DNA of 41,660 nucleotides from positions 1 through 41,660 of the forward strand of contig JAZOUF010000029.1 of assembly GCA_045657985.1 (NCBI GenBank), given 5' to 3'. Shown here piece by piece: positions 1 to 29,294 of this stretch; within the stretch, counting starts at the first letter, position 1, and every line of letters starts with the position of its first letter. The DNA is from Candidatus Nanosyncoccus sp. (GTDB lineage: Bacteria > Patescibacteriota > Saccharimonadia > Saccharimonadales > Saccharimonadaceae). Both the position numbers and the translations under genes were made by a program. The notes under the pieces are model-generated. The model made no database searches. It saw only the letters and a program-made list of their open reading frames with translations, and was not told where the DNA came from.

Positions 1-399
1 GACCAACCTATTATTATTACGGTTAGCGTCAGTACTATCGCCCACACTAGCAAGCAAATTATAACCATCCGCTATATTACTGCCAGCCGTTACTGTCACT
101 GTATTACTATATGCCGCCGTACCAGGCGCCAAGTCCTCAATTACGAAACCAGTATTAGTATCAAAGCTCACTCTGACCGTCGGTACAAAAGTATATTCTA
201 AGTCTATACTATTATTATAAGTTAAAGCAGAAGCATGATTAAAATAAATATGAGTAATGATGAAGGGTGATAATGATGATAATAATATAGTAAAGACGGG
301 TCCTGCCAGTCTCCTCCCCCAAAATTTTACTATCGTAAACATTTTGGGGGTCCCCCTCCGACTGTCACCCGTCTTTATTCTTTCTATGTTTTTCTTCAT
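1..399 (-). CDS. Secreted/surface protein, N-terminal part (runs off the left edge; absent from the ORF track)
   Basis: Manual translation from ATG at 399 has no stop down to position 1: MKKNIERIK-TGDSRRGTPKMFTIVKFWGRRLAGPV-FTILLSSLSPFIITHIYFNHASA|LTYNNSIDLEYTFVPTVRVSFDTNTGFVIEDLAPGTAAYSNTVTVTAGSN... GAGGT lies just upstream; hydrophobic stretch and A-S-A signal peptidase I motif present. Confidence 0.85.
   Translation of the reverse strand, partial: MKKNIERIKTGDSRRGTPKMFTIVKFWGRRLAGPVFTILLSSLSPFIITHIYFNHASALTYNNSIDLEYTFVPTVRVSFDTNTGFVIEDLAPGTAAYSNTVTVTAGSNIADGYNLLASVGDSTDANRNNNRLV
295..373 (-). repeat. Intragenic hairpin element, copy 1 (in signal peptide of surface protein)
   Basis: Minus strand: GACGGGT GA CAGTC GGAGGGGA CCCCCAAAAT G TTTAC GATA GTAAA ATTTTGGGGG AGGA GACTG GCAGG ACCCGTC. 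Same termini and loop layout as the queA and tgt copies. Confidence 0.85.
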
Positions 400-616
400 G
401 CTACCTCACTTTAACGCTTTTCCACTTTTTATCATAAGTCCCATGCGGTGCCATTAAAAAGCGTATATAAAAATGGCACCGCAAGGGTGCAATAACCTAA
501 TCATAAACCAAAGCTGATTCACAACTCGGACCTTACGGTGCCAATTTTATTGTGAATCGCCTCAGCATCTTAATACAAAAACGCTCTGGTTTAAATAATT
601 AAGTTATTGCACTTTC
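400..616 (-). promoter_or_regulatory. Long structured 5' leader with mutually exclusive helices (candidate attenuator or riboswitch-like RNA)
   Basis: Rod spanning 612-487 (GTGCAATAAC/GTTATTGCAC, TAAACCA/TGGTTTA, GATTCACAA/TTGTGAATC), then hairpin TGCGGTGCCATT...AATGGCACCGCA. Competing pairing TGGCACCGTAAGG/CCTTGCGGTGCCA. Confidence 0.55.
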
Positions 617-625
617 ATTATAACA
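617..625 (-). promoter_or_regulatory. Extended -10 promoter for the leader and surface protein
   Basis: TGtTATAAT on the minus strand, a few nt before the first arm of the long hairpin. Confidence 0.6.
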
Positions 626-682
626 CATATTTCATAATAAATACAAAAATATAAGAATAATACTAAGTCATTCGCCAATCAT

Positions 683-1330
683 CTACCACTCAATTTCTTC
701 CATCCCATTTTCGTGCAGGAACTTATTGCACTTTGAAAATGGCCTACTTCCGAAAAAACCACCATACGCCGACAGCGGCGACGGATGTGCCGATTCTAGC
801 ACAAGATGTCGCGAAGTATCAATTAACGATTTTTTATTTCTCGCATCTCTCCCCCATAAAATAAACACTAGATGCGGCCGCACTTTATTCAAATACGAAA
901 TAGTTGCAGTAGTAAAAGTCTCCCAACCCTTCCCTCGATGCGAGCCAGCTTTATGCGCCTCCACAGTCAGCACTGTATTTAGAAGTAGTACCCCTTGTTT
1001 CTGCCAGTTTGCCAAACTTCCCCGCGGATTTACATGATGCCCAACGTCATCATCAATTTCCTTATAGATATTTAGAAGTGACGGTGGAATCGGCTGTGAA
1101 TTCGGCACCGAAAACGCCAGACCTTCAGCAGCCCCTGGCGTATGATATGGGTCCTGTCCCAGTATCACCACTTTCACATCATTCAGATTAGTTGTAAATG
1201 CCCGAAATACTAGCCCTTTTGCTGGATAAATCGTCTTATGCTCATATTCTTCATGTAGGAATGCCGCCAGCTCCTTAAAATACGGTTTTTCAAATTCCTC
1301 GTTCAGAAACTCTTTCCAACTTTCATCCAT
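683..1330 (-). CDS. ung: Uracil-DNA glycosylase family 1
   Basis: GQDPYH, GLAFS, VLLLN and HPSPLS motifs. Start moved to ATG 1330 (MDESWKEF) because the longer ORF overlaps tdk. Confidence 0.97.
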   Translation of the reverse strand: MDESWKEFLNEEFEKPYFKELAAFLHEEYEHKTIYPAKGLVFRAFTTNLNDVKVVILGQDPYHTPGAAEGLAFSVPNSQPIPPSLLNIYKEIDDDVGHHVNPRGSLANWQKQGVLLLNTVLTVEAHKAGSHRGKGWETFTTATISYLNKVRPHLVFILWGRDARNKKSLIDTSRHLVLESAHPSPLSAYGGFFGSRPFSKCNKFLHENGMEEIEW

Positions 1331-1348
1331 GCTATAATTATAACATGG
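1327..1348. promoter_or_regulatory. Palindromic bidirectional extended -10 promoter for ung and tdk
   Basis: CCATGCTATAATTATAACATGG gives TGnTATAAT-N6-ATG on both strands. Confidence 0.75.
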
Positions 1349-1932
1349 CAAAACTATATTTCAGGTACGGAGCAATGGGGTGTGGCAAGACTATGCAACT
1401 TTTGCAAGTTGCTTTTAATTACGAAGAGCGCGGTCATCAAGTCTGCGTGATTAAACCAAAAACCGACACTAAAAATGGCACAAAATTATTAACTCGTATC
1501 GGTCCGGAACGTGAAACGGATTTCTGCTTTGACCGTGCGACCGATTTGTTTAAGCGCATCAGCGAAGAATATGCTGGCGTACAGTGCGTACTTGTGGACG
1601 AATCTCAATTCCTCACTAAAGCACAAGTTGACCAGCTCATGCTTGTTACTATTGAGTTAGACATTCCCGTAATGTGCTACGGCCTACGTCTTAATTTTCG
1701 CCGCGAAGATGGCGGTTTTGAGGGTGCTACTCGTCTCCTTCAAATCGCCCACGACATTGAAGAAATCAAGACTATCTGCGAATGCGGCAAGAAGGCCACC
1801 TATAACGCACGCTTCCTAGACGGCAAATTTGTCTGCGACGGCCCCGATGTTCTTATCGATGGCACCACCGAAATCGAATACCGCGCCATCTGCCCCGCCT
1901 GCTACGAAAAGTATCTAGAAGGAGAAAACTAA
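1345..1932 (+). CDS. tdk: Thymidine kinase
   Basis: GAMGCGKT P-loop, VDESQF, and Zn site CECG...CPAC. Confidence 0.96.
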   Translation: MAKLYFRYGAMGCGKTMQLLQVAFNYEERGHQVCVIKPKTDTKNGTKLLTRIGPERETDFCFDRATDLFKRISEEYAGVQCVLVDESQFLTKAQVDQLMLVTIELDIPVMCYGLRLNFRREDGGFEGATRLLQIAHDIEEIKTICECGKKATYNARFLDGKFVCDGPDVLIDGTTEIEYRAICPACYEKYLEGEN

Positions 1933-2540
1933 TGTATATCGTCATCGAAGGTCAGGATGGTACTGGCAAATCCACCCAGGTCGAGCTACTGGAAAAACAT
2001 TTTGAATCGCAAGGCAAAAAGGTTGCTACACTTGATGAGCCAGATGGCGATTTGCCACAAGCTCATGATTTACATGACATGATTCTGACTCGCGGTTACA
2101 ATTTGGAACCTTTCACTAACGTCTTGCTATTCACTGCAGCAAGATTAGAGCTCTGGAAAAAAATCGCTGAGCCAATTTTGAAAGATGGCGGAATTGTGAT
2201 TTCCGCTCGTAATTACTGGTCTACATTGGCCTACCAAGGCTACGGCGAAGGTGTTTCTCGTAGCAAAATCATCAGAATTACCAAAGAATTATTGCCGGAT
2301 AAATACGTCCATCCAGATTTTGGTTTCATTCTTACTGTTCCCGATAAAGTGCGTCTAGAACGCCAGCAAAACCGCGGCAAAGCCACCGAAACTTTTGAAG
2401 CTAAACCAAATACATTTCAACAAAAAGTTAACGCCGCCTATCCACACATAGCTAAAGATTTCGGACTTACGCTCATCGACGCTTCCGGCACCATTGATGA
2501 AGTCTTCGAGAAGATAATAAACTCTTTGCGATTGTCATAA
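1932..2540 (+). CDS. tmk: Thymidylate kinase
   Basis: IVIEGQDGTGKST, LLFTAAR, STLAYQG. TAATG overlap with tdk. Confidence 0.93.
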   Translation: MYIVIEGQDGTGKSTQVELLEKHFESQGKKVATLDEPDGDLPQAHDLHDMILTRGYNLEPFTNVLLFTAARLELWKKIAEPILKDGGIVISARNYWSTLAYQGYGEGVSRSKIIRITKELLPDKYVHPDFGFILTVPDKVRLERQQNRGKATETFEAKPNTFQQKVNAAYPHIAKDFGLTLIDASGTIDEVFEKIINSLRLS

Positions 2541-2564
2541 GACGGCTAGAGTTTATCATCTTGA

Positions 2565-4364
2565 CTATGTTTCGGCAAACTGCGAATTATAAAGTTCCGC
2601 ATAGAACCCGCCAGCCTTGAGCAAAGACTCATGATTCCCTTGCTCTACTATTGCTCCATCACGCATTACAAGAATCAAATCGGAGTTGCGAATCGTTGAC
2701 AGCCTATGTGCAATTACGAATGAAGTTCTCCCAGAGGTCAGCCGTTCAAAAGAATCCTGAATCAAATGTTCAGTACGGGTGTCCACGTTGGAAGTTGCTT
2801 CATCCAAAATCATCATCGGCGGATTCGCTACCATCGCCCTAGCAATCGTAATCAGCTGCTTTTCTCCAGCCGAGATATTGTCCGAATCTTCCGAGATCTC
2901 TGTTTTGTAACCATTAGGCAACGCCTCAATGATATGATCTACATTGGACGCTTTTGCCGCTTTTCTAATATCGTCAAGCGATGCCGATTGATTACCATAA
3001 CGCAAATTTTCTTCAACCGTACCAGAAAACAGCCAAGTGTCTTGCAAAACCATCCCGAACTGCTTCCTTACATCCGCCCGCTTCATTTCGCGCGTTGGCA
3101 CGCCATCAATCGTAATGTAGCCACTCGATGGATCATAAAACCGCATTAGAAGATTAATAATTGTGGTTTTACCAGCACCAGTTGGGCCTACAATTGCCAC
3201 TTTCATACCTGGCTCCACTTTCACCGAGAAATCTCGGATGATTGTTTGGTCAGGCAAGTATCCGAAGTTAACGTCATGAAACTCTACTTCTCCGTGCACT
3301 TTTTCTATCTCGCGCGCCGGCTCGATGTCTGGCTCTTCTTCTGGCTCGTTTAGAAATTCAAACACCCGCTCGCTCGCCGCAAGTAGTGACTGCAAAGTGG
3401 AAGTAGTTGAAGCAATTTCCGTAATCGGTCGAATAAACCGTGATACATATTGGATAAACGCTTGAATATTGCCAATCGTTATTTGACCATTTACTACAAA
3501 CACCCCACCCAGTACACACACCGCTACATAAGCTAGATTGGTAAAAATATGCGTTACCGGAAAAGACAAAGAAGAATACACTTGTGCTTTACGCGATACT
3601 GTGGCGAGTTTTTCGTTAATTTCCGAGAACTCCGCCAGCGCATTATCTTCATAAGAGTTAGATTTAATGACGATTTCGCCAGAATAATCCTCCTCGATCT
3701 CGCTATTTAGTACACCAAGCGTAGCCTGTTGTTCGCGGAAATATTTCTGCGCATATTTCATAATCTTGCCCACGACGATTACGGAAATCGGCACCACTAC
3801 GAATGTGATTAAAGACAAAGGTACGCTAATCACCATCATAATAATCATCACGCCAACCAAAGTCGTCACGGACAACGAAATGTCGGCGATTTCCTGCGAC
3901 ATCGACGTGGTTAATACGTCCACATCATTGGACATTCTAGACAAAGTATCACCATATTGATGTTTATCAAAATATGCAATCGGCAGACGTGAAATTTTGT
4001 CCAAAATCCTTTCACGCATTTCTTTTGTGTACCTCGCCGATACTATCGCCAGTATATATGCCTGCGCATAATTCAAAACCGCAGATGATAGAAAAAGCGT
4101 AATCACGAGTATTGCTTTTTGTCCTAATGCCGCCCAATCTAAATCATTGCATATTCCTTCCGCGGCATTTGTTATATCACGACAACTCTCCACGGCAATA
4201 TTCGTCATATCGCCCAGAATTTTCGGAATAAATAATCCCAAAACTGCCGAACCAACCGTTAAGATGATTGATATTAGAATAAAAACTTTATGACGACCTA
4301 GCGATTTTACAAAAACCTTGAATGATCTCCACATGCTTTGCGAATTGTTCTTTTTTGTTTTCAT
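2565..4364 (-). CDS. Heterodimeric ABC exporter subunit (TMD+NBD; canonical Walker B and H-switch)
   Basis: GPTGAGKT, degenerate signature ISAGEKQ, MILDEATS, IAHRLST. Confidence 0.93.
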   Translation of the reverse strand: MKTKKNNSQSMWRSFKVFVKSLGRHKVFILISIILTVGSAVLGLFIPKILGDMTNIAVESCRDITNAAEGICNDLDWAALGQKAILVITLFLSSAVLNYAQAYILAIVSARYTKEMRERILDKISRLPIAYFDKHQYGDTLSRMSNDVDVLTTSMSQEIADISLSVTTLVGVMIIMMVISVPLSLITFVVVPISVIVVGKIMKYAQKYFREQQATLGVLNSEIEEDYSGEIVIKSNSYEDNALAEFSEINEKLATVSRKAQVYSSLSFPVTHIFTNLAYVAVCVLGGVFVVNGQITIGNIQAFIQYVSRFIRPITEIASTTSTLQSLLAASERVFEFLNEPEEEPDIEPAREIEKVHGEVEFHDVNFGYLPDQTIIRDFSVKVEPGMKVAIVGPTGAGKTTIINLLMRFYDPSSGYITIDGVPTREMKRADVRKQFGMVLQDTWLFSGTVEENLRYGNQSASLDDIRKAAKASNVDHIIEALPNGYKTEISEDSDNISAGEKQLITIARAMVANPPMMILDEATSNVDTRTEHLIQDSFERLTSGRTSFVIAHRLSTIRNSDLILVMRDGAIVEQGNHESLLKAGGFYAELYNSQFAET

Positions 4365-6115
4365 ACTTTTTCCGCCTTCCTTAGTTCCGCCTTGTATTCT
4401 TTGTCAGATAACTGCGATTTTACAATTTCCTGATAAACATCACATTTTTTTAGCAATTCTAGATGCTTTCCCTTTCCAACCACATGACCATTGTTAAGCA
4501 CTACGATTTGATCAGCATCTTTAATGGTACTGATGCGCTGCGCCACAATCAGCACTACAGCTTCAGTCGTTACTTCTTTTAGTGCTGCGCGAAGTCGGCT
4601 ATCGGTCTTCATGTCGAGTGCTGAAAACGAATCATCAAACACAAAAATATCTGGATTTTTGCAGACTGCACGCGCAATAGATAAACGTTGTTTTTGTCCA
4701 CCAGACACATTCGTGCCACCTTGCGCAATATGCGAATTATACTTTTCTGGCAATTTTTCAATAAAGTTTTTCGCTTGCGCAATTTCTGCTGCTTTATGTA
4801 CTTGCTCATCGGTCGCATTTGGCGCTCCGAATTTAATATTGGACTTTACAGTGCCCGCAAACAACATCCCGCGTTGTGGTACAAAGCCAATCCTCCCCAT
4901 CAAGTCTTTTTTCTCATAATCTTTTACGGAGATACCATTGATTAAAACTTTTCCGCTAGTTGCTTCGTAAAATCTCGGTACTAAATTTACTAGTGTAGAC
5001 TTTCCGGAACCAGTTGAGCCAATGAAGGCAGTCGTCTGACCAGCTACGGCCTTAAAAGAAATATCATCAAGCACTTTTTCGCTGGCGCCAGGATATTTAA
5101 AATCAACTTTCTGAAACTCTACAGACGGCAACTTTTCCGGCACACCATTGGTAGTCTTGCGCCAACGGATTTTGGAGGCTTTCGCGAGCACGTCATTGAT
5201 TCTATGCGCTGATACGTTTGCCCTCGGAAGCATCACAAATAACATGGACATCATAAGAAAAGACATCATCACATGCGTCACATACTGTGCAAACGCCGTC
5301 ATATTGCCTAGATAGGCGAAATCTTTAGATAAAAGTGAAATCCCAACCCACGAGCAAAGGAGCGTCGTCCCATTAAAAATGATATTGATGAGTGGATTCT
5401 GCAGCTCCAAGATTTTATCTATAAAAATCAACAGTTTGGTAAGTACATCATTCGTTTTCACGAATTTCTTTTTTTCTAGCGATTCATTATTAAATGCTCG
5501 GACCACACGAAGTCCTGTTAAGTTTTCTCGCGTCAATAATGTCACTTTATCTACCAAATTCTGGAAAATCTTAAACTTCGGCATCACAAGTGACATCACG
5601 AGCACCACCGAACCTAGAATCGCTGCCGCCCCCACCCAGATAATCCAACCCATATCTGGCGCAGTCTGAATTGCTAAGATTATTGAAATAATGCAGAAGA
5701 GTGGTGCTCTCAGCATCATCGCGAGCATCATAATCACTACATTTTGCACCTGAGTCACGTCATTCGTTGTGCGCGTAATGAGTGACGCCGTACTAAAATC
5801 CCTAGAGTCTAGCACGTCAAAATTTAAAATCTTCACAAAAAGCGCCGCTCTTATATCGCGCGCAAACTTCGTACCGACTCTTGCTGAAAAAATGCTCGAC
5901 ACTAGCGACGCAACTGCAGACAAAAGTGCCATCCCAATCATTTCCAGTCCTATCATCCAGATGCGATGAATATCGCCAGGCACAATACCATTATTGATGA
6001 TGTCGGCCATAAGCGCTGGCAACATTAACGTTGTCGCAACTTGTACGGTCGTGGAAAAAGTGAGTATTACAACCTGCCACCAATATGGCTTCAAGAATTT
6101 AAACAATTTAAACAT
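4361..6115 (-). CDS. Heterodimeric ABC exporter subunit (TMD+NBD; degenerate catalytic site)
   Basis: GSTGSGKS, VSGGQKQ, Walker B FVFDD (E to D), VAQR (H to Q). ATGA overlap with its partner. Confidence 0.93.
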   Translation of the reverse strand: MFKLFKFLKPYWWQVVILTFSTTVQVATTLMLPALMADIINNGIVPGDIHRIWMIGLEMIGMALLSAVASLVSSIFSARVGTKFARDIRAALFVKILNFDVLDSRDFSTASLITRTTNDVTQVQNVVIMMLAMMLRAPLFCIISIILAIQTAPDMGWIIWVGAAAILGSVVLVMSLVMPKFKIFQNLVDKVTLLTRENLTGLRVVRAFNNESLEKKKFVKTNDVLTKLLIFIDKILELQNPLINIIFNGTTLLCSWVGISLLSKDFAYLGNMTAFAQYVTHVMMSFLMMSMLFVMLPRANVSAHRINDVLAKASKIRWRKTTNGVPEKLPSVEFQKVDFKYPGASEKVLDDISFKAVAGQTTAFIGSTGSGKSTLVNLVPRFYEATSGKVLINGISVKDYEKKDLMGRIGFVPQRGMLFAGTVKSNIKFGAPNATDEQVHKAAEIAQAKNFIEKLPEKYNSHIAQGGTNVSGGQKQRLSIARAVCKNPDIFVFDDSFSALDMKTDSRLRAALKEVTTEAVVLIVAQRISTIKDADQIVVLNNGHVVGKGKHLELLKKCDVYQEIVKSQLSDKEYKAELRKAEKV

Positions 6116-6132
6116 ATGCTCTCACAATTATA

Positions 6133-7230
6133 CTACACTTTCTTTGTATCGCGCCTTTTCTCTAACTGCATAAAAAAGTAGATAATCGGCCCGATTATAA
6201 TATAAATGTAGTATGAGAAAAATCTCCAGAATAGCATCGCCCAGAATACATACCCAGTAGAAAGCGCTGAAAAGACTAAGAAGAAAGTTCCTTCTGCCGC
6301 CCCGGTATTACCTGGAGTCGGAACGAAGTATACGGCGCTCGTTACTGCCACTGACAATGCAAAACATTCTATAAATCTGACATCACCGCCGAATGCTGTC
6401 AACACGAAGAAAGGGATCATCATGATTAGCGCGTTGTAGGCCACGGACATGATAATTACTCTGAAAAAAAGTCCTTTCTCTTTCAAAATTACTTTTACCG
6501 ACTTGGCGTAACCACTCACCTCATCTTCGATTTTGTCTAAAGCCTTATCACGTTTTTTTACCACGTGTAGTTTAGCAAGGACCTTTACTAGCCATTTCAA
6601 GAATTTTGTTGTCGCTTTTGGGAAGAAACTTACCCCCGCCACCATAATCGGCCAAAATGCAAAAAACAATAGACCAATCCAAGCTGTCACCATGAGCGCA
6701 GGTTTCGTATACATAATCCCGCTAAACAGAAAACACGATATGGCGATAATCAAAAATCCAATTTGATTTGCAATCATCCCGACAAGTGGTATAGACGTAG
6801 ATGCACCATGGCTCAGCCCACTATTCTTGCGCATATAGTAAATCTGGAATGGTTGCCCACCAATCGCTGCCGGCGTCACACTATCGTAATATTTACCAAG
6901 CAACACCGTTCGCCGTGCAACTTTCCAAACATCCGTTAACTTTGCCTTTTTCTCATCTTTCCCACGCATTTTCCGAATCATCAGTACGTAGCGATTGATG
7001 TCCAATGTGATCGCCACCACAAAACAAATCACCGCCGGAATCAGTAACCACCAGTTGAGCTTGACTTCGGATAATTTCGCCGCTTCAGTAGAATTGCCAA
7101 ACTCACTGCTTGCAGTCACCGCAATGACGATTGCGTTTAGCAAAATAAACACTACAAAAGCAAGAGTCTTTTTCCATGACCGCTTTTTCTTAATCGGTAA
7201 AAAATCTTGTTTTTTATCCTTATCTTCCAT
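6133..7230 (-). CDS. Lysylphosphatidylglycerol-synthase TM / flippase-like domain protein (UPF0104)
   Basis: Multiple TMs; VTPAAIGGQP, PTPGNTGAAE and LFWRFFSYY motifs. Confidence 0.8.
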   Translation of the reverse strand: MEDKDKKQDFLPIKKKRSWKKTLAFVVFILLNAIVIAVTASSEFGNSTEAAKLSEVKLNWWLLIPAVICFVVAITLDINRYVLMIRKMRGKDEKKAKLTDVWKVARRTVLLGKYYDSVTPAAIGGQPFQIYYMRKNSGLSHGASTSIPLVGMIANQIGFLIIAISCFLFSGIMYTKPALMVTAWIGLLFFAFWPIMVAGVSFFPKATTKFLKWLVKVLAKLHVVKKRDKALDKIEDEVSGYAKSVKVILKEKGLFFRVIIMSVAYNALIMMIPFFVLTAFGGDVRFIECFALSVAVTSAVYFVPTPGNTGAAEGTFFLVFSALSTGYVFWAMLFWRFFSYYIYIIIGPIIYFFMQLEKRRDTKKV

Positions 7231-7241
7231 TCGTATTTATC

Positions 7242-8351
7242 CTACGCTCTACGTGCCGCTTTAATATTTGGGTATTCATCCATCAAAACTCGGATACAAC
7301 CAGCAATTGGCACTGACACAATGGCGCCAAGCAGTCCGAACATATACATTCCAATTACGATTGCGATGAGGATCATAATGGCTGGTAAGTTCAGGGCATT
7401 ACCTTGAATCTTCGGTGCAATCATATTATTTTCAATTTGCGCATACACTATATATACAACTGCAAAAATAATTGCCGCCAGTGGACTATTGAATAGTAAT
7501 AATAGTGTCACCAAAGTTCCACCGATAATCTGCCCAAACATCGGAATTAGATAAAATAGCATCGTAATCATACCCATCGGAATCGCAATGCTAGACGGCA
7601 CATCGGTGAATAGCGAAAGTAAGAATACGATTAGTCCGCTCGCGCAACCATCAAGCATGGCAACGATCACTTGCCGTGATACGTAGGTCGAAATCACATT
7701 TGCCATTCTTGAAACTACACGTTTTGCGACATTAATTGGCTTTTTGTTTTCTTCACCAGTACTAATGCTCTTCCAGAACGTATTTGCTAGCATCGGCCCT
7801 TCTAATAGGAAAAGTAATGTTAGTACGAGTACTAATACTAATTTCATAATTACATCCGCTACACCACCAACACTAGATACCAAATTATTGCCAAGCAACC
7901 CCAACAAATTATCCGAAAGAGATTTAAGCGCGTTGGATATTTCCGCATGGAGATTATCAATACCAAGCATGTGACCAAAATTATTTACGCCGTCCCAACC
8001 GCCAAATTTCGTTTCAAATGTTTCAGGAAAGTTTTGTACGAATTTTGCAGTTTCCGTTACTACGACCGGTCCAATAATTGCTAAGATTGCCCCAATCACG
8101 ATTACTACAATCATGTAAGCTAAAATCGCTGACGCTGTCTGGTGCTTCTTATCTCCACCAAAGTGCCTCGTGAAAAAATCATTTACTTTGCGTACTAATG
8201 GTTTTAGTGCGAGCGCCAAGAAAAGCGAAACCCCGACGACTACCAATCCAGTTGTGGCTTTTGAAAGAACAAAAATCGCAATTGCTATCACTACCGGAAT
8301 CAACCAAAATTTGATAAAAGTCTTGGTGTCTGTTTCAATGGTTTTCGACAT
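7242..8351 (-). CDS. AI-2E family transporter
   Basis: Hydrophobic profile; IPMFG, QIENNMIAPKIQG, GLLGAIVSVP. AGGAGG RBS. Confidence 0.85.
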   Translation of the reverse strand: MSKTIETDTKTFIKFWLIPVVIAIAIFVLSKATTGLVVVGVSLFLALALKPLVRKVNDFFTRHFGGDKKHQTASAILAYMIVVIVIGAILAIIGPVVVTETAKFVQNFPETFETKFGGWDGVNNFGHMLGIDNLHAEISNALKSLSDNLLGLLGNNLVSSVGGVADVIMKLVLVLVLTLLFLLEGPMLANTFWKSISTGEENKKPINVAKRVVSRMANVISTYVSRQVIVAMLDGCASGLIVFLLSLFTDVPSSIAIPMGMITMLFYLIPMFGQIIGGTLVTLLLLFNSPLAAIIFAVVYIVYAQIENNMIAPKIQGNALNLPAIMILIAIVIGMYMFGLLGAIVSVPIAGCIRVLMDEYPNIKAARRA

Positions 8352-8472
8352 AAACCTCCTTATACAAGTATTGTAGCATAAATAAACGCAAATATGTTAA
8401 TGATTTTTAGTACTTTCCCAAGCCAAGCCATATTCATACATAGCGTATATCCATAAAATATGTTATAATTAA

Positions 8473-9561
8473 ATGATGTTAGTTTCCGATTATAATTACA
8501 ATTTACCTGATGACCGCATTGCGAAATTCCCCCCTAAAGAGCGCGGCACTACTAGGCTCCTAGTTTTAAACCGCAAAACCGGTGCTATTCAAGATTCCTA
8601 TTATCGCAATTTGGATGAATTCTTGAACCCAGGCGATGTCTTAATTCTAAATGACACTCGTGTTATGCAGTCGCGTCTTTTTTGCACGCTTCCGGATGGA
8701 CGCAAACGTGAACTCGTAGTGCTTGAGAAACACGGCGACGAACCACAGCGCGTGATGTATCGTGGTAAATTGCACGACGGCGATGTAGTTACCGTTGAAA
8801 CCGAGCAAATCACGATTAAACAAATCCTAGGCAACGGTATCGCCGAAGTTGAGTCTGACACCCCTCTTGCTAAATTAGCCGAGAAGTATGGTACTGTTCC
8901 CTTGCCACCCTACCTTCATCGTGACGCCACAGATGACGATAAAAAACGCTATCAAACTGTCTGGGCGAAAAACATAGGCTCCGCCGCCGCCCCTACTGCT
9001 TCACTCAATATGACCGAAGATTTACTTGACAGACTAAAAGCCAAAGGTGTAATTGTTAAATATCTTACGCTCCACGTTGGTCTTGGCACTTTCCTGCCCA
9101 TGCGTACGGATAAGGTCGAGGACCATAAAATGCATTCCGAATGGTACCATATTCCAGAAGACACGATTGAAGCGATCAATGCCATTCGTGAGCAGACGGG
9201 TGACGGGCTTGGTAGGGTTCCCACAGAGCACCCAAAGGGTGGAGCTGTGGGAAGGAAAAGTCCGGCAGGACCCGTCAAGTTCCCGCCAAGAGTCATCGCT
9301 TTAGGTACTACCGTTGCTCGTACCTTGGAGTATTATGCCAGGACTGGCAAAACCGAAGGCGAAGATGATATTTTCATTTATCCAGGTTTTGAATTCCAAA
9401 TCGTTGACGCTCTCCTTACGAATTTTCATGCGCCAAAATCAACTGTGCTTATGCTAGCTAGCGCTTTTGCTGGCTGGGAACATTTACATTCTGCCTATGA
9501 TTATGCGGTGCAAAATCATTACAACTTTCTAAGTTACGGAGACTCAATGTTAATATGCTAA
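8473..9561 (+). CDS. queA: S-adenosylmethionine:tRNA ribosyltransferase-isomerase with ~30 aa in-frame insertion
   Basis: LNDTRV, PLPPYL, YQTV, AAPTASL, LHVGLGTF, GTT, LLTNFHAPKST, SYGDSMLI. The second ATG (8476) fits the promoter spacing better. Confidence 0.96.
   Translation: MMLVSDYNYNLPDDRIAKFPPKERGTTRLLVLNRKTGAIQDSYYRNLDEFLNPGDVLILNDTRVMQSRLFCTLPDGRKRELVVLEKHGDEPQRVMYRGKLHDGDVVTVETEQITIKQILGNGIAEVESDTPLAKLAEKYGTVPLPPYLHRDATDDDKKRYQTVWAKNIGSAAAPTASLNMTEDLLDRLKAKGVIVKYLTLHVGLGTFLPMRTDKVEDHKMHSEWYHIPEDTIEAINAIREQTGDGLGRVPTEHPKGGAVGRKSPAGPVKFPPRVIALGTTVARTLEYYARTGKTEGEDDIFIYPGFEFQIVDALLTNFHAPKSTVLMLASAFAGWEHLHSAYDYAVQNHYNFLSYGDSMLIC
9195..9276 (+). repeat. Intragenic hairpin element, copy 2 (in queA)
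   Basis: GACGGGT GA CGGGCTT GGTAGGG TTCCCACAG AG CACCC AAA GGGTG GAG CTGTGGGAA GGAA AAGTCCG GCAGG ACCCGTC (82 nt). Confidence 0.92.
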
Positions 9562-10856
9562 AGTTTGATATTGAACATCGCGATGGCCTTGCTCGCGTTG
9601 GCGTCATTCATACTCCACACGGTGATATAAAAACGCCAGCCTTCGTTGGTGCTGCCACCCGTGCCACGGTCAAAGCACTCACCATGAAAGAAATGCACGA
9701 CCTAGGTAGTCGAGCTATACTCGCCAACACTTACCACTTATTATTGCGCCCAGGCACAAATATAATCAAGCAGGCTGGAGGGCTTGCTGAGTTTAGTAGT
9801 TGGCATGCCCCCACCTTTACTGACTCGGGCGGTTTTCAGATTTTTTCTTTGCCCGACGTCAAAATTACCGAGCAGGGTGCTAAATTCAAATCGCACATCG
9901 ACGGTGCGAAATTTGAAATGACTCCAGAATCCTCCATGCAAGCCCAGTGGGCCATCGGTGCCGACATCCACATGGCGTTTGATCACCTCGCAAAATCGGA
10001 AAGTTACGAAGACATGAAAGAAGCTATGCAACGCACCCATCGCTGGCTCGACCGATGCGTCGCCGAGCACGCCAGACTAGCCAATGAATCAACTGGTAGG
10101 GGTGTCCGGAATGTCTCTCTCGAAGGGTCTTCGAAACACGGCAGCGCGAGGATGAGTGTATATTATGGTGTAGATGGGCGGGTGACGGACTTGGAAGGGA
10201 TCCCGCAGAGCACCCGAAGGGTGGAGCTGCGGGAGGGAAAAGTCCGGCAGGACCCGCCCGTAAGTCAACAGTATTTATATGCGGTCGTCCAAGGTGGCAC
10301 CTTCAACGACCTCCGCGCCGAGTCTGCAAAGTACTGTGCATCCAGGCCTGTCGACGGCTTTGGCATCGGCGGAGTATTCACGGCCGATAAAATGGGTGAG
10401 ATGCTCCAAACTGTCAACTCGATTTTACCAGAAAATAAACCCCGCCACCTTCTCGGCATGGGACAGGAACCGATCGATTTATTTGTTGGTGCTGAATTTG
10501 GCTGTGATACTTTTGACTGTGTCGGCCCTACTCGTATGGCCAGAAACGGCTCTTTGTACACCAAGGATGGTCGCATCAATATCAAAAATGCCAAATATCG
10601 CGAAGATTTTGCACCGCTCATGGATGATTGCATCTGTGAATGTTGTCAGAATTACACTCGCGCTTACCTCCATCATCTCTTCAAAACTGACGAGATAACC
10701 GCTAAAGTTCTCGCGTCGATTCATAACGAGTATTTTATCGTCCACACCGTTGACCAAATTCGCGAGTCTCTCGAAAACGGCACTTTTAAAGATTACCAAA
10801 AATCATTCCTCACCCGCTATTATCAAGGCAAAATCCCCTTCTGTATTACATTGTAA
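9555..10856 (+). CDS. tgt: tRNA-guanine transglycosylase with ~60 aa in-frame insertion
   Basis: TPAF, LANTYHL, TDSGGFQ, VQGG, FDCV.PTR.ARNG, Zn site CICECC...HN. Confidence 0.96.
   Translation: MLKFDIEHRDGLARVGVIHTPHGDIKTPAFVGAATRATVKALTMKEMHDLGSRAILANTYHLLLRPGTNIIKQAGGLAEFSSWHAPTFTDSGGFQIFSLPDVKITEQGAKFKSHIDGAKFEMTPESSMQAQWAIGADIHMAFDHLAKSESYEDMKEAMQRTHRWLDRCVAEHARLANESTGRGVRNVSLEGSSKHGSARMSVYYGVDGRVTDLEGIPQSTRRVELREGKVRQDPPVSQQYLYAVVQGGTFNDLRAESAKYCASRPVDGFGIGGVFTADKMGEMLQTVNSILPENKPRHLLGMGQEPIDLFVGAEFGCDTFDCVGPTRMARNGSLYTKDGRINIKNAKYREDFAPLMDDCICECCQNYTRAYLHHLFKTDEITAKVLASIHNEYFIVHTVDQIRESLENGTFKDYQKSFLTRYYQGKIPFCITL
10177..10258 (+). repeat. Intragenic hairpin element, copy 3 (in tgt)
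   Basis: 82 nt, 73/82 identical to the queA copy by manual alignment; read in a different frame. Confidence 0.92.
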
Positions 10857-28648: not shown

Positions 28649-28677
28649 ATTATACTAAAAAAGTTAAAAGAAGTCAA
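28649..28677 (-). promoter_or_regulatory. Sigma70 promoter of rplK
   Basis: TTGACT-N17-TATAAT. Confidence 0.8.
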
Positions 28678-28748
28678 GAAAAACCCTCCGAGGACCATAG
28701 GCCCGGCCGAACGGCCTTGAGTGTGTCCGAGGAGGGTATTCTTGACTT
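28671..28748. repeat. Long GC-rich interrupted inverted repeat between nusG and rplK
   Basis: AAGTCAAGAA/TTCTTGACTT, ACCCTCC/GGAGGGT, GGAC/GTCC, and apical GGCC-GAAC-GGCC. Confidence 0.75.
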
Positions 28749-29294
28749 CTAAAGCTGTTTTACCTGTAAAGCATCAAGTTCAACTGGCGTTTCACGCCCA
28801 AACATTGATACCATCACCTTGAGCTTGCCTTTAGCCGCGTCAATTTCTGACACACTACCATCAAAGCCCTTGAACGGCCCATCAGTAATTGAAACTACTT
28901 CACCGATTTCATACTTCACTGAGAACTTTGGATCTTCTACACCCATACGTTTCTTAATTTTTGCAATTTCCTTTTCAGAAACTGGCGTTGGCTGTGTTCC
29001 AGTGCCGATAAAACCGGTTACACCAGGAGTATTACGAATGATATACCAAGTTTCGTCAGATAGCTTCATGTCAACAAGCACGTATCCTTGCAGGATTTTT
29101 CGATCTACAACTTTACGCTTGCCATTCTTAATTTCAATTTGCTTTTCTTTCGGTACAATGGCTTCGAAAATTTTATCTGCCATTTCTACAGTGTTAGTTC
29201 TCTGGTTGATCGAATCAGCCACCTTATCCTCATAACCACTATAAGTTGAAATCGCGTACCACGAACGTGTTGCGTCATAACGGTTTACTGCCAT
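28749..29294 (-). CDS. nusG: Transcription termination/antitermination factor NusG
   Basis: WY...YSGYE, GYVLV, TPGVTGF, KOW DGPFKGF, FGRETPVEL. Confidence 0.97.
   Translation of the reverse strand: MAVNRYDATRSWYAISTYSGYEDKVADSINQRTNTVEMADKIFEAIVPKEKQIEIKNGKRKVVDRKILQGYVLVDMKLSDETWYIIRNTPGVTGFIGTGTQPTPVSEKEIAKIKKRMGVEDPKFSVKYEIGEVVSITDGPFKGFDGSVSEIDAAKGKLKVMVSMFGRETPVELDALQVKQL

What the first reader, a model, noticed from the sequence alone, without database searches (positions are those of the whole stretch)
295..10258. Family of ~80 nt structured elements inserted in frame, in sense orientation, inside three unrelated genes
Seen in sequence: three copies (295-373 minus, 9195-9276, 10177-10258) share the termini GRCGGGTGAC and GGCAGGACCCGYC. 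They also share one rod architecture: P1, a GA/GCAGG internal loop, P2, a purine-rich internal loop (GGWAGGG or GGAGGG opposite GGAA or AGGA), P3 and an apical P4. Copy 1 keeps P1 and the loops but has largely different P2-P4 sequences that still pair. All three lie within open reading frames and in the same orientation relative to the mRNA. No transposase or RT gene is in the window. Established: Rickettsia palindromic elements and REP/REPIN sequences are precedents for palindromes that enter genes or spread non-autonomously, but I do not recognise this sequence as a known family. Inference: a non-autonomous mobile element, or a functional mRNA motif (protein-binding site, processing signal or micro-intron), that donates new peptide loops to proteins.
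Basis: partly seen in the sequence, partly recalled or inferred. Interest (0 to 1): 0.9.

Follow-up and report, generated by a model that had tools for sequence, protein, structure and literature searches.

The report
Cross-phylum hairpin elements inside essential genes
The three 80-base hairpins are real copies of a repeat family that sits in frame, in either orientation, inside housekeeping genes of gut Saccharibacteria and recurs in many other bacterial phyla; it is likely a small selfish DNA element recognised as folded single-stranded DNA by a protein not yet identified.

Summary
The three copies belong to a family with 15 full copies in this genome, matches in 43 of 151 genus genomes and up to 87 copies per genome in other phyla, with strong covariation. 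Independent sequencing runs carry the inserts. The 'sense orientation' reading fails beyond the window: 26 of 81 deep-coding copies are antisense, and 6 of 32 protein sites hold both orientations. Coding inserts keep the frame (11 of 11 net 3n), and the frame containing the element's TGA is used only by variants that lost it, so they are likely translated as loops, not spliced. Stems have few G-T pairs and DNA-type GNA/GNYA loops, which points to a single-stranded DNA structure. I found no target duplication, no Rfam match, and no linked Y1/RAYT, reverse transcriptase, small GIY-YIG, IS110, IVS or DUF559 gene. It works like Rickettsia palindromic elements; the mobiliser is unknown. This scan already reported similar in-frame hairpins in other Saccharibacteria and cross-phylum foldbacks.

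The parts
295..373 (-). Element copy 1 (79-nt core), in frame in the N-terminal, signal-peptide-like region of a paralog-family ORF
   Evidence: a paralog on contig C23 has the core inverted at the same site and its ortholog in G110 lacks it, net 90 nt
1..399 (-). Host ORF of copy 1 (runs off the contig end; no Pfam match); member of a multi-copy family of predicted exported proteins
8473..9561 (+). queA, host of copy 2
   Evidence: PF02547; PDB 1yy3 match with the insert between its residues 251 and 252
9195..9276 (+). Element copy 2 (82-nt core), predicted to encode a disordered loop (QueA residues 248-267, pLDDT under 50)
9183..9283 (+). Full segment (core plus 12-nt and 7-nt arms) that is replaced by 2 nt in an empty allele seen in run X7
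   Evidence: table 5: one 90-nt contig, depth 4, short side 30 nt
9555..10856 (+). tgt, host of copy 3; this loop region is 88 aa here and 32 aa in close relative G110
10093..10151 (+). Left-half remnant of a larger related hairpin element (similar to the left half of the inserts in L210 and L213), in frame in tgt, upstream of copy 3
   Evidence: comparison by eye; contigs of other runs cover it
10177..10258 (+). Element copy 3 (82-nt core), read in a different frame from copy 2
28666..28751 (.). Intergenic hairpin of a second repeat family between nusG and rplK; absent at the same site in G110

Best explanation
These are copies of a small repeat family with a fixed cap (CGGGTG[AG]C ... G[AG]CAGGACCCG) around variable but paired interiors, likely a non-autonomous selfish DNA element that is recognised as a folded single-stranded DNA hairpin and moved by a trans-acting protein not yet identified. 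Shown: many copies at unrelated loci; filled, empty, swapped and half-deleted alleles at orthologous sites; both orientations; frame kept in genes; no excess of target duplications. Inferred: a new copy (core plus 5-12-nt arms) enters with a few host bases replaced and no duplication. Copies in genes survive only at permissive surface loops and with a net length of 3n, and are translated through. Intergenic copies survive upstream of extended -10 promoters and at gene ends. Copies decay by in-frame slippage deletions, flip between their own inverted arms, and swap interiors by recombination at the conserved cap. The conserved, covarying A-G/G-A mismatch and the purine-rich loops are likely the protein-recognition features.
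For: Copy number and spread: 15 full, 1 chimeric, 4 contig-end and 3 half-remnant copies in G000; 43 of 151 genus genomes with reversed-pattern control 0; 11 of 301 phylum genomes; 42 of 45 hit-selected genomes, mostly of other lineages, have 2 or more copies and 23 have 10 or more, control 0. Polymorphism: 25 hairpin-bearing indels or replacements between G000 and G110, 11 of 11 coding ones net 3n; queA and tgt loops are empty, filled in different frames, or filled by other hairpin families across relatives. Translation: the sense frame with the element's TGA is closed in 137 of 139 copies and is used only by the 2 TGGC variants; AlphaFold puts the QueA insert in a low-confidence loop on an intact fold. 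DNA-level signature in 175 non-redundant copies: 83% Watson-Crick, 3% G-T and 2% A-C at 8 anchored positions versus 23-25% Watson-Crick when slid. Of 190 apical loops, 25 are GNA triloops, 11 GNYA, 9 GNRA and 0 UUCG, against 2 such loops on the reverse strand. GCGNAGC/GCGNNAGC mini-hairpins are much more stable as DNA than as RNA (PMC13037366, passages). The cap mismatch is only AG or GA in 159 non-redundant copies, whereas unstructured viral pattern hits also show GG and AA.
Against: No mobiliser was found, so movement by a dedicated protein is inferred. No excised or circular form was seen, and the raw-read runs did not cover the organism. Empty alleles between G000 and G110 may be losses rather than ancestral targets, so the insertion signature is not fixed. 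Orientation is not random: 55 sense versus 26 antisense copies; 19 sense-only, 7 antisense-only and 6 mixed sites; an extended -10 lies just downstream in 18 of 57 non-coding or gene-edge copies versus 1 of 57 upstream on the same strand. That leaves room for an RNA-level filter. 140 of 190 apical loops fit no stable class, and the loops were called with RNA parameters. Copies are related, so the counts are not independent; 32 loci judged chance by eye were dropped.
Confidence: 0.55

Rival explanations
1. No dedicated enzyme: the hairpins propagate through host replication and repair (template switching at stalled forks, gene conversion between conserved caps, uptake of DNA by natural competence), and the conserved loops are kept because a host protein binds them.
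For: A genome held as one chromosome record (G395) has 49 copies but no Y1 transposase, no RT and only one, UvrC-sized, GIY-YIG. Polymorphic sites are often replaced patches, and remnants end at microhomologies. Near-perfect stems with few mismatches fit palindrome correction.
Against: Flanking identity at polymorphic sites is at genome level beyond 30 nt (92-94% versus 92.5% random), so no imported tract is seen. The same cap occurs across distant phyla with a patchy distribution, which suggests a transferred recognition system.
Confidence: 0.2
2. The element is an RNA rod copied by a reverse transcriptase (DGR or retron type) and inserted as cDNA.
For: G000 encodes a DGR-type RT with an adenine-variable template repeat and a second RT. 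RT is present in 34 of 43 element-positive versus 63 of 108 element-negative genus genomes (my tally; kin are not independent). There is a sense bias.
Against: RT found in only 4 of 31 element-rich genomes of other lineages. 0 of 30 genus RT loci have an element within 1.5 kb; copies near RT loci lie in or beside neighbouring genes, outside the RT cassette. Few G-T pairs and no UUCG loops.
Confidence: 0.1
3. The element is a domesticated functional motif (terminator, RNA-stability or processing hairpin, or protein-binding site) that the host keeps at gene ends, with coding copies tolerated.
For: Many intergenic copies sit just upstream of extended -10 boxes (18 of 57); one replaces a terminator-like hairpin at a gene end (C61 versus G110); two sit directly before a 16S-like 5' end (L173, L199, recognised by eye).
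Against: Absent from 108 of 151 genus genomes by the strict pattern; gained, lost and swapped between 92-94%-identical genomes; deep inside essential genes in both orientations; no U-tract in the consensus.
Confidence: 0.1
4. The element is a micro-intron removed from the mRNA.
For: A closed rod whose ends pair, with most coding copies in sense orientation.
Against: Antisense coding copies are common (26 of 81); net changes are 3n in 11 of 11 coding polymorphisms; the stop-containing frame is avoided unless the TGA is mutated; in-frame half-deleted remnants persist.
Confidence: 0.02

Closest known systems
Rickettsia palindromic elements (RPE; Ogata et al. 2000/2002, as summarised in PMC10969869, passages read)
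   Same: Palindromic repeats fused in frame into unrelated housekeeping genes and also intergenic; no known own transposase.
   Different: RPE is described as ~150 bp with a conserved peptide in one genus. This family is 76-97 nt, read in five of six frames among the copies collected, has structure-conserved but sequence-divergent interiors, and occurs across many phyla. No sequence comparison with RPE was made.
Prokaryotic MITEs (PMC10969869, passages)
   Same: Short, ORF-less, stem-loop forming, inverted ends, varying copy number.
   Different: No excess of target-site duplications; GC-rich rather than AT-rich; the ends are an imperfect stem with conserved internal loops; no partner IS found.
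REP/REPIN with RAYT; GTAG- and CGTC-tagged REPs (PMC3733652, passages)
   Same: Strand-asymmetric hairpins, multi-copy, some intragenic; CGTC REPs also lack a known transposase.
   Different: REPs are 20-40 bp with an unpaired GTAG/CGTC tag. Such tags lie outside the stem in only 5 of 140 copies. Y1 genes are in 7 of 151 genus genomes, none element-positive, and 0 of 38 Y1 loci carry the element within 1.5 kb.
NTS/SRM hairpins with Ssn GIY-YIG ssDNA nucleases (PMC11893778, passages)
   Same: Cross-phylum, oriented hairpins recognised as single-stranded DNA.
   Different: The SRM pattern matches 0 of 140 copies. No Ssn-sized GIY-YIG among the 150 listed genus hits (30 more not listed), and 0 of 30 GIY-YIG loci from other lineages carry the element within 1.5 kb. 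NTS is rarely intragenic.

Membership tests
Rickettsia palindromic elements | Palindromic repeat inserted in frame in unrelated genes | tested here: met
   32 protein sites among 81 deep-coding copies; hosts named
Rickettsia palindromic elements | One conserved encoded peptide | tested here: not met
   Frames sense2 37, sense1 16, anti0 14, anti2 12, sense0 2
Rickettsia palindromic elements | Sequence homology to RPE-1 to RPE-10 | not tested
   No RPE sequences were fetched; the primary paper PMC186582 is not held
MITE | Terminal inverted repeats | tested here: met
   Outer stem pairs in 92% and 81% of copies at the first two flank positions versus 39% and 43% shuffled; imperfect stem
MITE | Target-site duplication | tested here: not met
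   Flanking direct-repeat lengths equal the shuffled distribution; the X7 empty allele shows replacement of 2 nt
MITE | Cognate autonomous IS with the same ends | tested here: inconclusive
   None for Y1, IS110 in 0 of 5 genomes, DDE_5/IS701 in G000; other transposase families not searched; genomes incomplete
REP/REPIN (RAYT) | Unpaired GTAG or CGTC tag beside a 20-40 bp palindrome | tested here: not met
   5 of 140 copies have any such tetramer within 6 nt outside the stem; cores are 73-97 nt
REP/REPIN (RAYT) | RAYT gene flanked by the repeat | tested here: not met
   0 of 38 Y1 loci; Y1 in 14 of 31 element-rich genomes of other lineages and in 0 of 43 element-positive genus genomes
NTS/SRM (Ssn) | SRM consensus and a flanked small GIY-YIG gene | tested here: not met
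   0 of 140 SRM matches; 0 of 30 and 0 of 30 GIY-YIG loci with the element nearby
Rfam 15 families | Covariance-model match | tested here: not met
   No match over the elements at E up to 5 or up to 2; similarity to the genome's own RNase P RNA is at chance level
Intron or IVS | Removal from the transcript | not testable with these tools
   Indirect evidence against it; IVS protein PF05635 in 0 of 5 element-rich genomes

The most novel reading that the evidence does not exclude
A phylum-spanning superfamily of modular single-stranded-DNA hairpin elements, built from repeated sheared G-A (GNA/GA) motifs, that spreads by a mechanism using none of the tested mobilisers (Y1/RAYT, RT, Ssn, IS110, IVS protein, DUF559). 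It would be moved by an undescribed enzyme or by host replication machinery, and would repeatedly seed new peptide loops into essential proteins.
Probability: 0.3. Interest if true: 0.85.

Novelty: new variant of a known kind. Interest (0 to 1): 0.6.

Why it matters
How RPE-type coding palindromes arise and move has been open since their description. This family gives hundreds of covarying copies, filled and empty alleles at the same loops, a precise recognition motif and element-rich genomes that lack the usual mobilisers, so a pull-down or profiling search for the enzyme becomes direct. It also shows that highly reduced Saccharibacteria genomes carry a dynamic load of inserts in tRNA synthetases, tRNA-modifying enzymes and DNA-repair proteins. 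That maps natural insertion-tolerant loops and will disturb annotation and phylogenies of these genes.

Tried and rejected
Derivation from RNase P RNA: best local score 26 versus shuffled maximum 28. Small SRP RNA was not found in G000, so that comparison could not be made. Homing-like co-conversion tracts: rejected, identity beyond 30 nt from polymorphic sites equals background. Long locus-specific outer stem as a general rule: only a modest excess beyond the first two positions (duplex energy -7.1 versus -5.6 kcal/mol shuffled; 14% of copies beyond the shuffled 5% tail). Autonomous partner flanked by hairpins in G000 or G110: none, but that detector was too strict and labelled only 5-6 family copies per genome. 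Pfam scans of 63 and 57 ORFs next to copies found no transposase, integrase or RT family. Phage or plasmid carriage: 0 of 44 IMG/VR pattern hits passed the fold test; no full-length match in the phage or plasmid collections. Strict replication-strand orientation: both orientations alternate along G395's chromosome in the listed rows (read by eye, no GC-skew test). Expression: no RNA holder listed. Raw-read runs X23 and X24 did not cover the locus. The P2 table printed had an index error and was replaced. No covariance model was built; distribution counts rest on exact patterns and are lower bounds. The GTDB-wide scan stopped at 125 rows.
Full report
Observation. Each folds into one rod far better than shuffles (DNA z -5.1 to -6.4). 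Hosts are an unannotated paralog-family ORF, queA and tgt. Copies 2 and 3 are read in different frames. Contigs from four runs cover the queA and tgt inserts in overlapping pieces, so they are not an assembly artefact.

Family in this genome. G000 (727 kb, 87% complete) has 15 full copies, one chimeric copy with the same cap, four copies cut by contig ends and three right-half remnants. Of the 15, eight are sense in ORFs (argS, ileS, murB, tsaE, queA, tgt, copy 1's host, and the N-terminus of a gene I read as miaA from its sequence), three are antisense (mnmA, an unnamed 385-codon ORF, and a paralog of copy 1's host with the core inverted at the same site) and four are intergenic or unclear. 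Covariation across the 15 is strong.

Distribution. The strict pattern hits 43 of 151 genus genomes and a slightly wider one 11 of 301 phylum genomes; reversed-pattern controls are 0. Named 'Candidatus Nanosyncoccus' records carry the same subfamilies, so I infer that genus. The GTDB-wide scan (stopped at 125 rows) also hit other lineages; 50 of 129 loci (125 genomic, 4 viral) passed a fold test. Their record titles include Omnitrophota, Planctomycetia, Solirubrobacterales/Thermoleophilaceae, Roizmanbacteria, Krumholzibacteriota, Eisenbacteria, Gammaproteobacteria, Deltaproteobacteria, Vicinamibacterales, Elusimicrobia and Bacillota. Titles are submitters' labels and single hits could be binning errors. 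However, of 45 genomes chosen for having a hit, 42 have two or more copies and 23 have ten or more, up to 87. In-frame copies occur there too: GHMP kinase and KsgA in Planctomycetia, E2 linkers and DnaX in Actinomycetota, a glycosyltransferase in Roizmanbacteria. No structured copy was found in viral contigs, phages or plasmids.

Anatomy. The invariant part is the cap CGGGTG[AG]C ... G[AG]CAGGACCCG. The two variable letters occur only as A-G or G-A in 159 non-redundant copies (141 and 18), a covarying mismatch pair. Outside the cap the stem continues with locus-variable pairs, then a genus consensus loop (AT opposite AGA). Interiors vary widely but pair, and 68 of 175 contain a further G(C/G)A opposite GA module, against a shuffled mean of 18. 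The same cap also encloses interiors of other hairpin families, so the system is modular. Pairing at eight anchored positions is 83% Watson-Crick, 3% G-T and 2% A-C, against 23-25% when slid. Apical loops include 25 GNA triloops, 11 GNYA, 9 GNRA and no UUCG among 190, and 2 such loops on the reverse strand. GCGNAGC-type mini-hairpins are much more stable as DNA than as RNA (PMC13037366, passages). That conserved RNA helices carry more G-U than this is my recollection, not a call. These counts exclude 32 loci that I judged chance by eye, and related copies are not independent.

Behaviour at sites. Across relatives the queA and tgt loops are empty, or filled by this family in different frames and orientations, by other hairpin families, by chimeras or by remnants. 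The window's tgt insert is the left half of a larger element followed by copy 3; G110 has the empty loop. I compared G000 with 752 kb of G110 (92-94% identity): 25 of 52 indel events carry hairpins. They include swaps between families, replacement of 1-50 host bases, and in-frame deletions between short direct repeats. All 11 events inside one open frame are net 3n; 7 of the other 14 are not. One contig in run X7 shows an empty queA allele in which 101 nt are replaced by 2 (depth 4, short side 30 nt). These empties may be losses. No target duplication exceeds chance and no divergent flanking tract was found.

Translation and orientation. Among 140 collected copies, 81 lie deep in ORFs: 55 sense and 26 antisense. 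They form 32 sites: 19 sense-only, 7 antisense-only and 6 mixed. The sense frame containing the cap's TGA is closed in 137 of 139 copies and is used only by the two TGGC variants, both in queA. AlphaFold places the QueA insert in a low-confidence loop (residues 248-267) on a fold with mean pLDDT 88. Read-through is therefore likely and splicing unlikely; neither was tested directly. Against a purely neutral DNA view: the sense bias, and an extended -10 box just downstream of 18 of 57 non-coding or gene-edge copies versus 0 of 81 deep-coding ones.

Mobiliser. Y1: absent from G000, in 7 of 151 genus genomes, none element-positive, in 14 of 31 element-rich genomes of other lineages, and never within 1.5 kb of an element in 38 loci. 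RT: two in G000, one a DGR; 34 of 43 versus 63 of 108 in the genus (my tally) but only 4 of 31 elsewhere. GIY-YIG: no Ssn-sized protein among the listed genus hits; small ones exist in other lineages but have no element nearby. IVS protein, IS110 and DUF559: 0 of 5 element-rich genus genomes. DDE_5: absent from G000. G395, one chromosome record with 49 copies, lacks Y1, RT and small GIY-YIG. Other transposase and nuclease families were not searched.

Known or not. There is no Rfam match. It works like RPE but fails the conserved-peptide feature, and it fails TSD (MITE), tag and RAYT (REP), and SRM (Ssn) tests. Literature searches (listings only) showed no description of this family; subscription papers are not covered. 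I read passages of PMC10969869, PMC3733652, PMC11893778 and PMC13037366 and opened no supplements; the intragenic-REP tables of PMC3733652 could bear on membership. Ogata et al. were seen only through the review. Earlier notes of this scan describe similar in-frame hairpins in other Saccharibacteria and cross-phylum foldback repeats. Sequence and place look-ups found none for this DNA, and I could not check whether those notes cover this same cap family.

Verdict. A real, apparently undescribed, cross-phylum family of RPE-like hairpin elements, likely DNA-level and non-autonomous (0.55), with the mobiliser unknown. New variant of a known kind; interest 0.6.

Noticed in passing
G000:C63:4043-6480 (L020): A DGR-like cassette: RT, an upstream unannotated ORF, and a template repeat whose copies on C27, C45 and C15 differ mostly at one base type (A on the minus strand).
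   Followed up: partly
window 1-627 and about 10 other contig ends or loci of G000: A multi-copy family of predicted exported proteins with a shared upstream palindromic region; several members carry the element 8 codons after the start, and the assembly often breaks there.
   Followed up: partly
window 28666-28751; G000 C32, C43, C61, C9, C39: A second hairpin repeat family, intergenic or at gene starts, polymorphic against G110.
   Followed up: partly
L027, L029, L039, L040, L041, L210, L213, L220 (QueA residue ~110): A second insertion hot spot in QueA, filled by three-way-junction hairpin families and once by this family.
   Followed up: partly
L173 and L199, right flanks: Copies directly upstream of a 16S rRNA-like 5' end (recognised by eye).
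   Followed up: no
L134: A copy sits between a TTGACA and a TG-TATAAT box, each 8-11 nt from the core, as if inserted into a promoter spacer.
   Followed up: no
L149, L154, L161, L162, L164, L170, L193 flanks: Duplicated half-caps beside full copies, suggesting repeated insertion at or next to old copies.
   Followed up: no
G391, G405, G414: Pairs of copies 75-215 nt apart in opposite orientation; some fall in the linkers of a dihydrolipoamide acyltransferase.
   Followed up: partly
G000:C41:1-690 (L019): A partial RT of a second type (not DGR-like by eye) at a contig end.
   Followed up: no
G000 whole genome: Small bacterial SRP RNA (RF00169) was not found; RNase P RNA is at C15:7043-7385. 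The genome is 87% complete.
   Followed up: no
window 840-944 (-): Weak SAM-riboswitch-like Rfam hit (23.8 bits, below the 44.4 gathering score) inside the uracil-DNA glycosylase gene; probably chance.
   Followed up: no
G000 C24:15502-15694, C17:18248-18407, C7:2536-2695, C22:4289-4448: Long AT-rich palindromes of about 160-190 nt, some with GC-rich tips; three of them occupy sites where G110 has a short hairpin or a copy of this family.
   Followed up: partly
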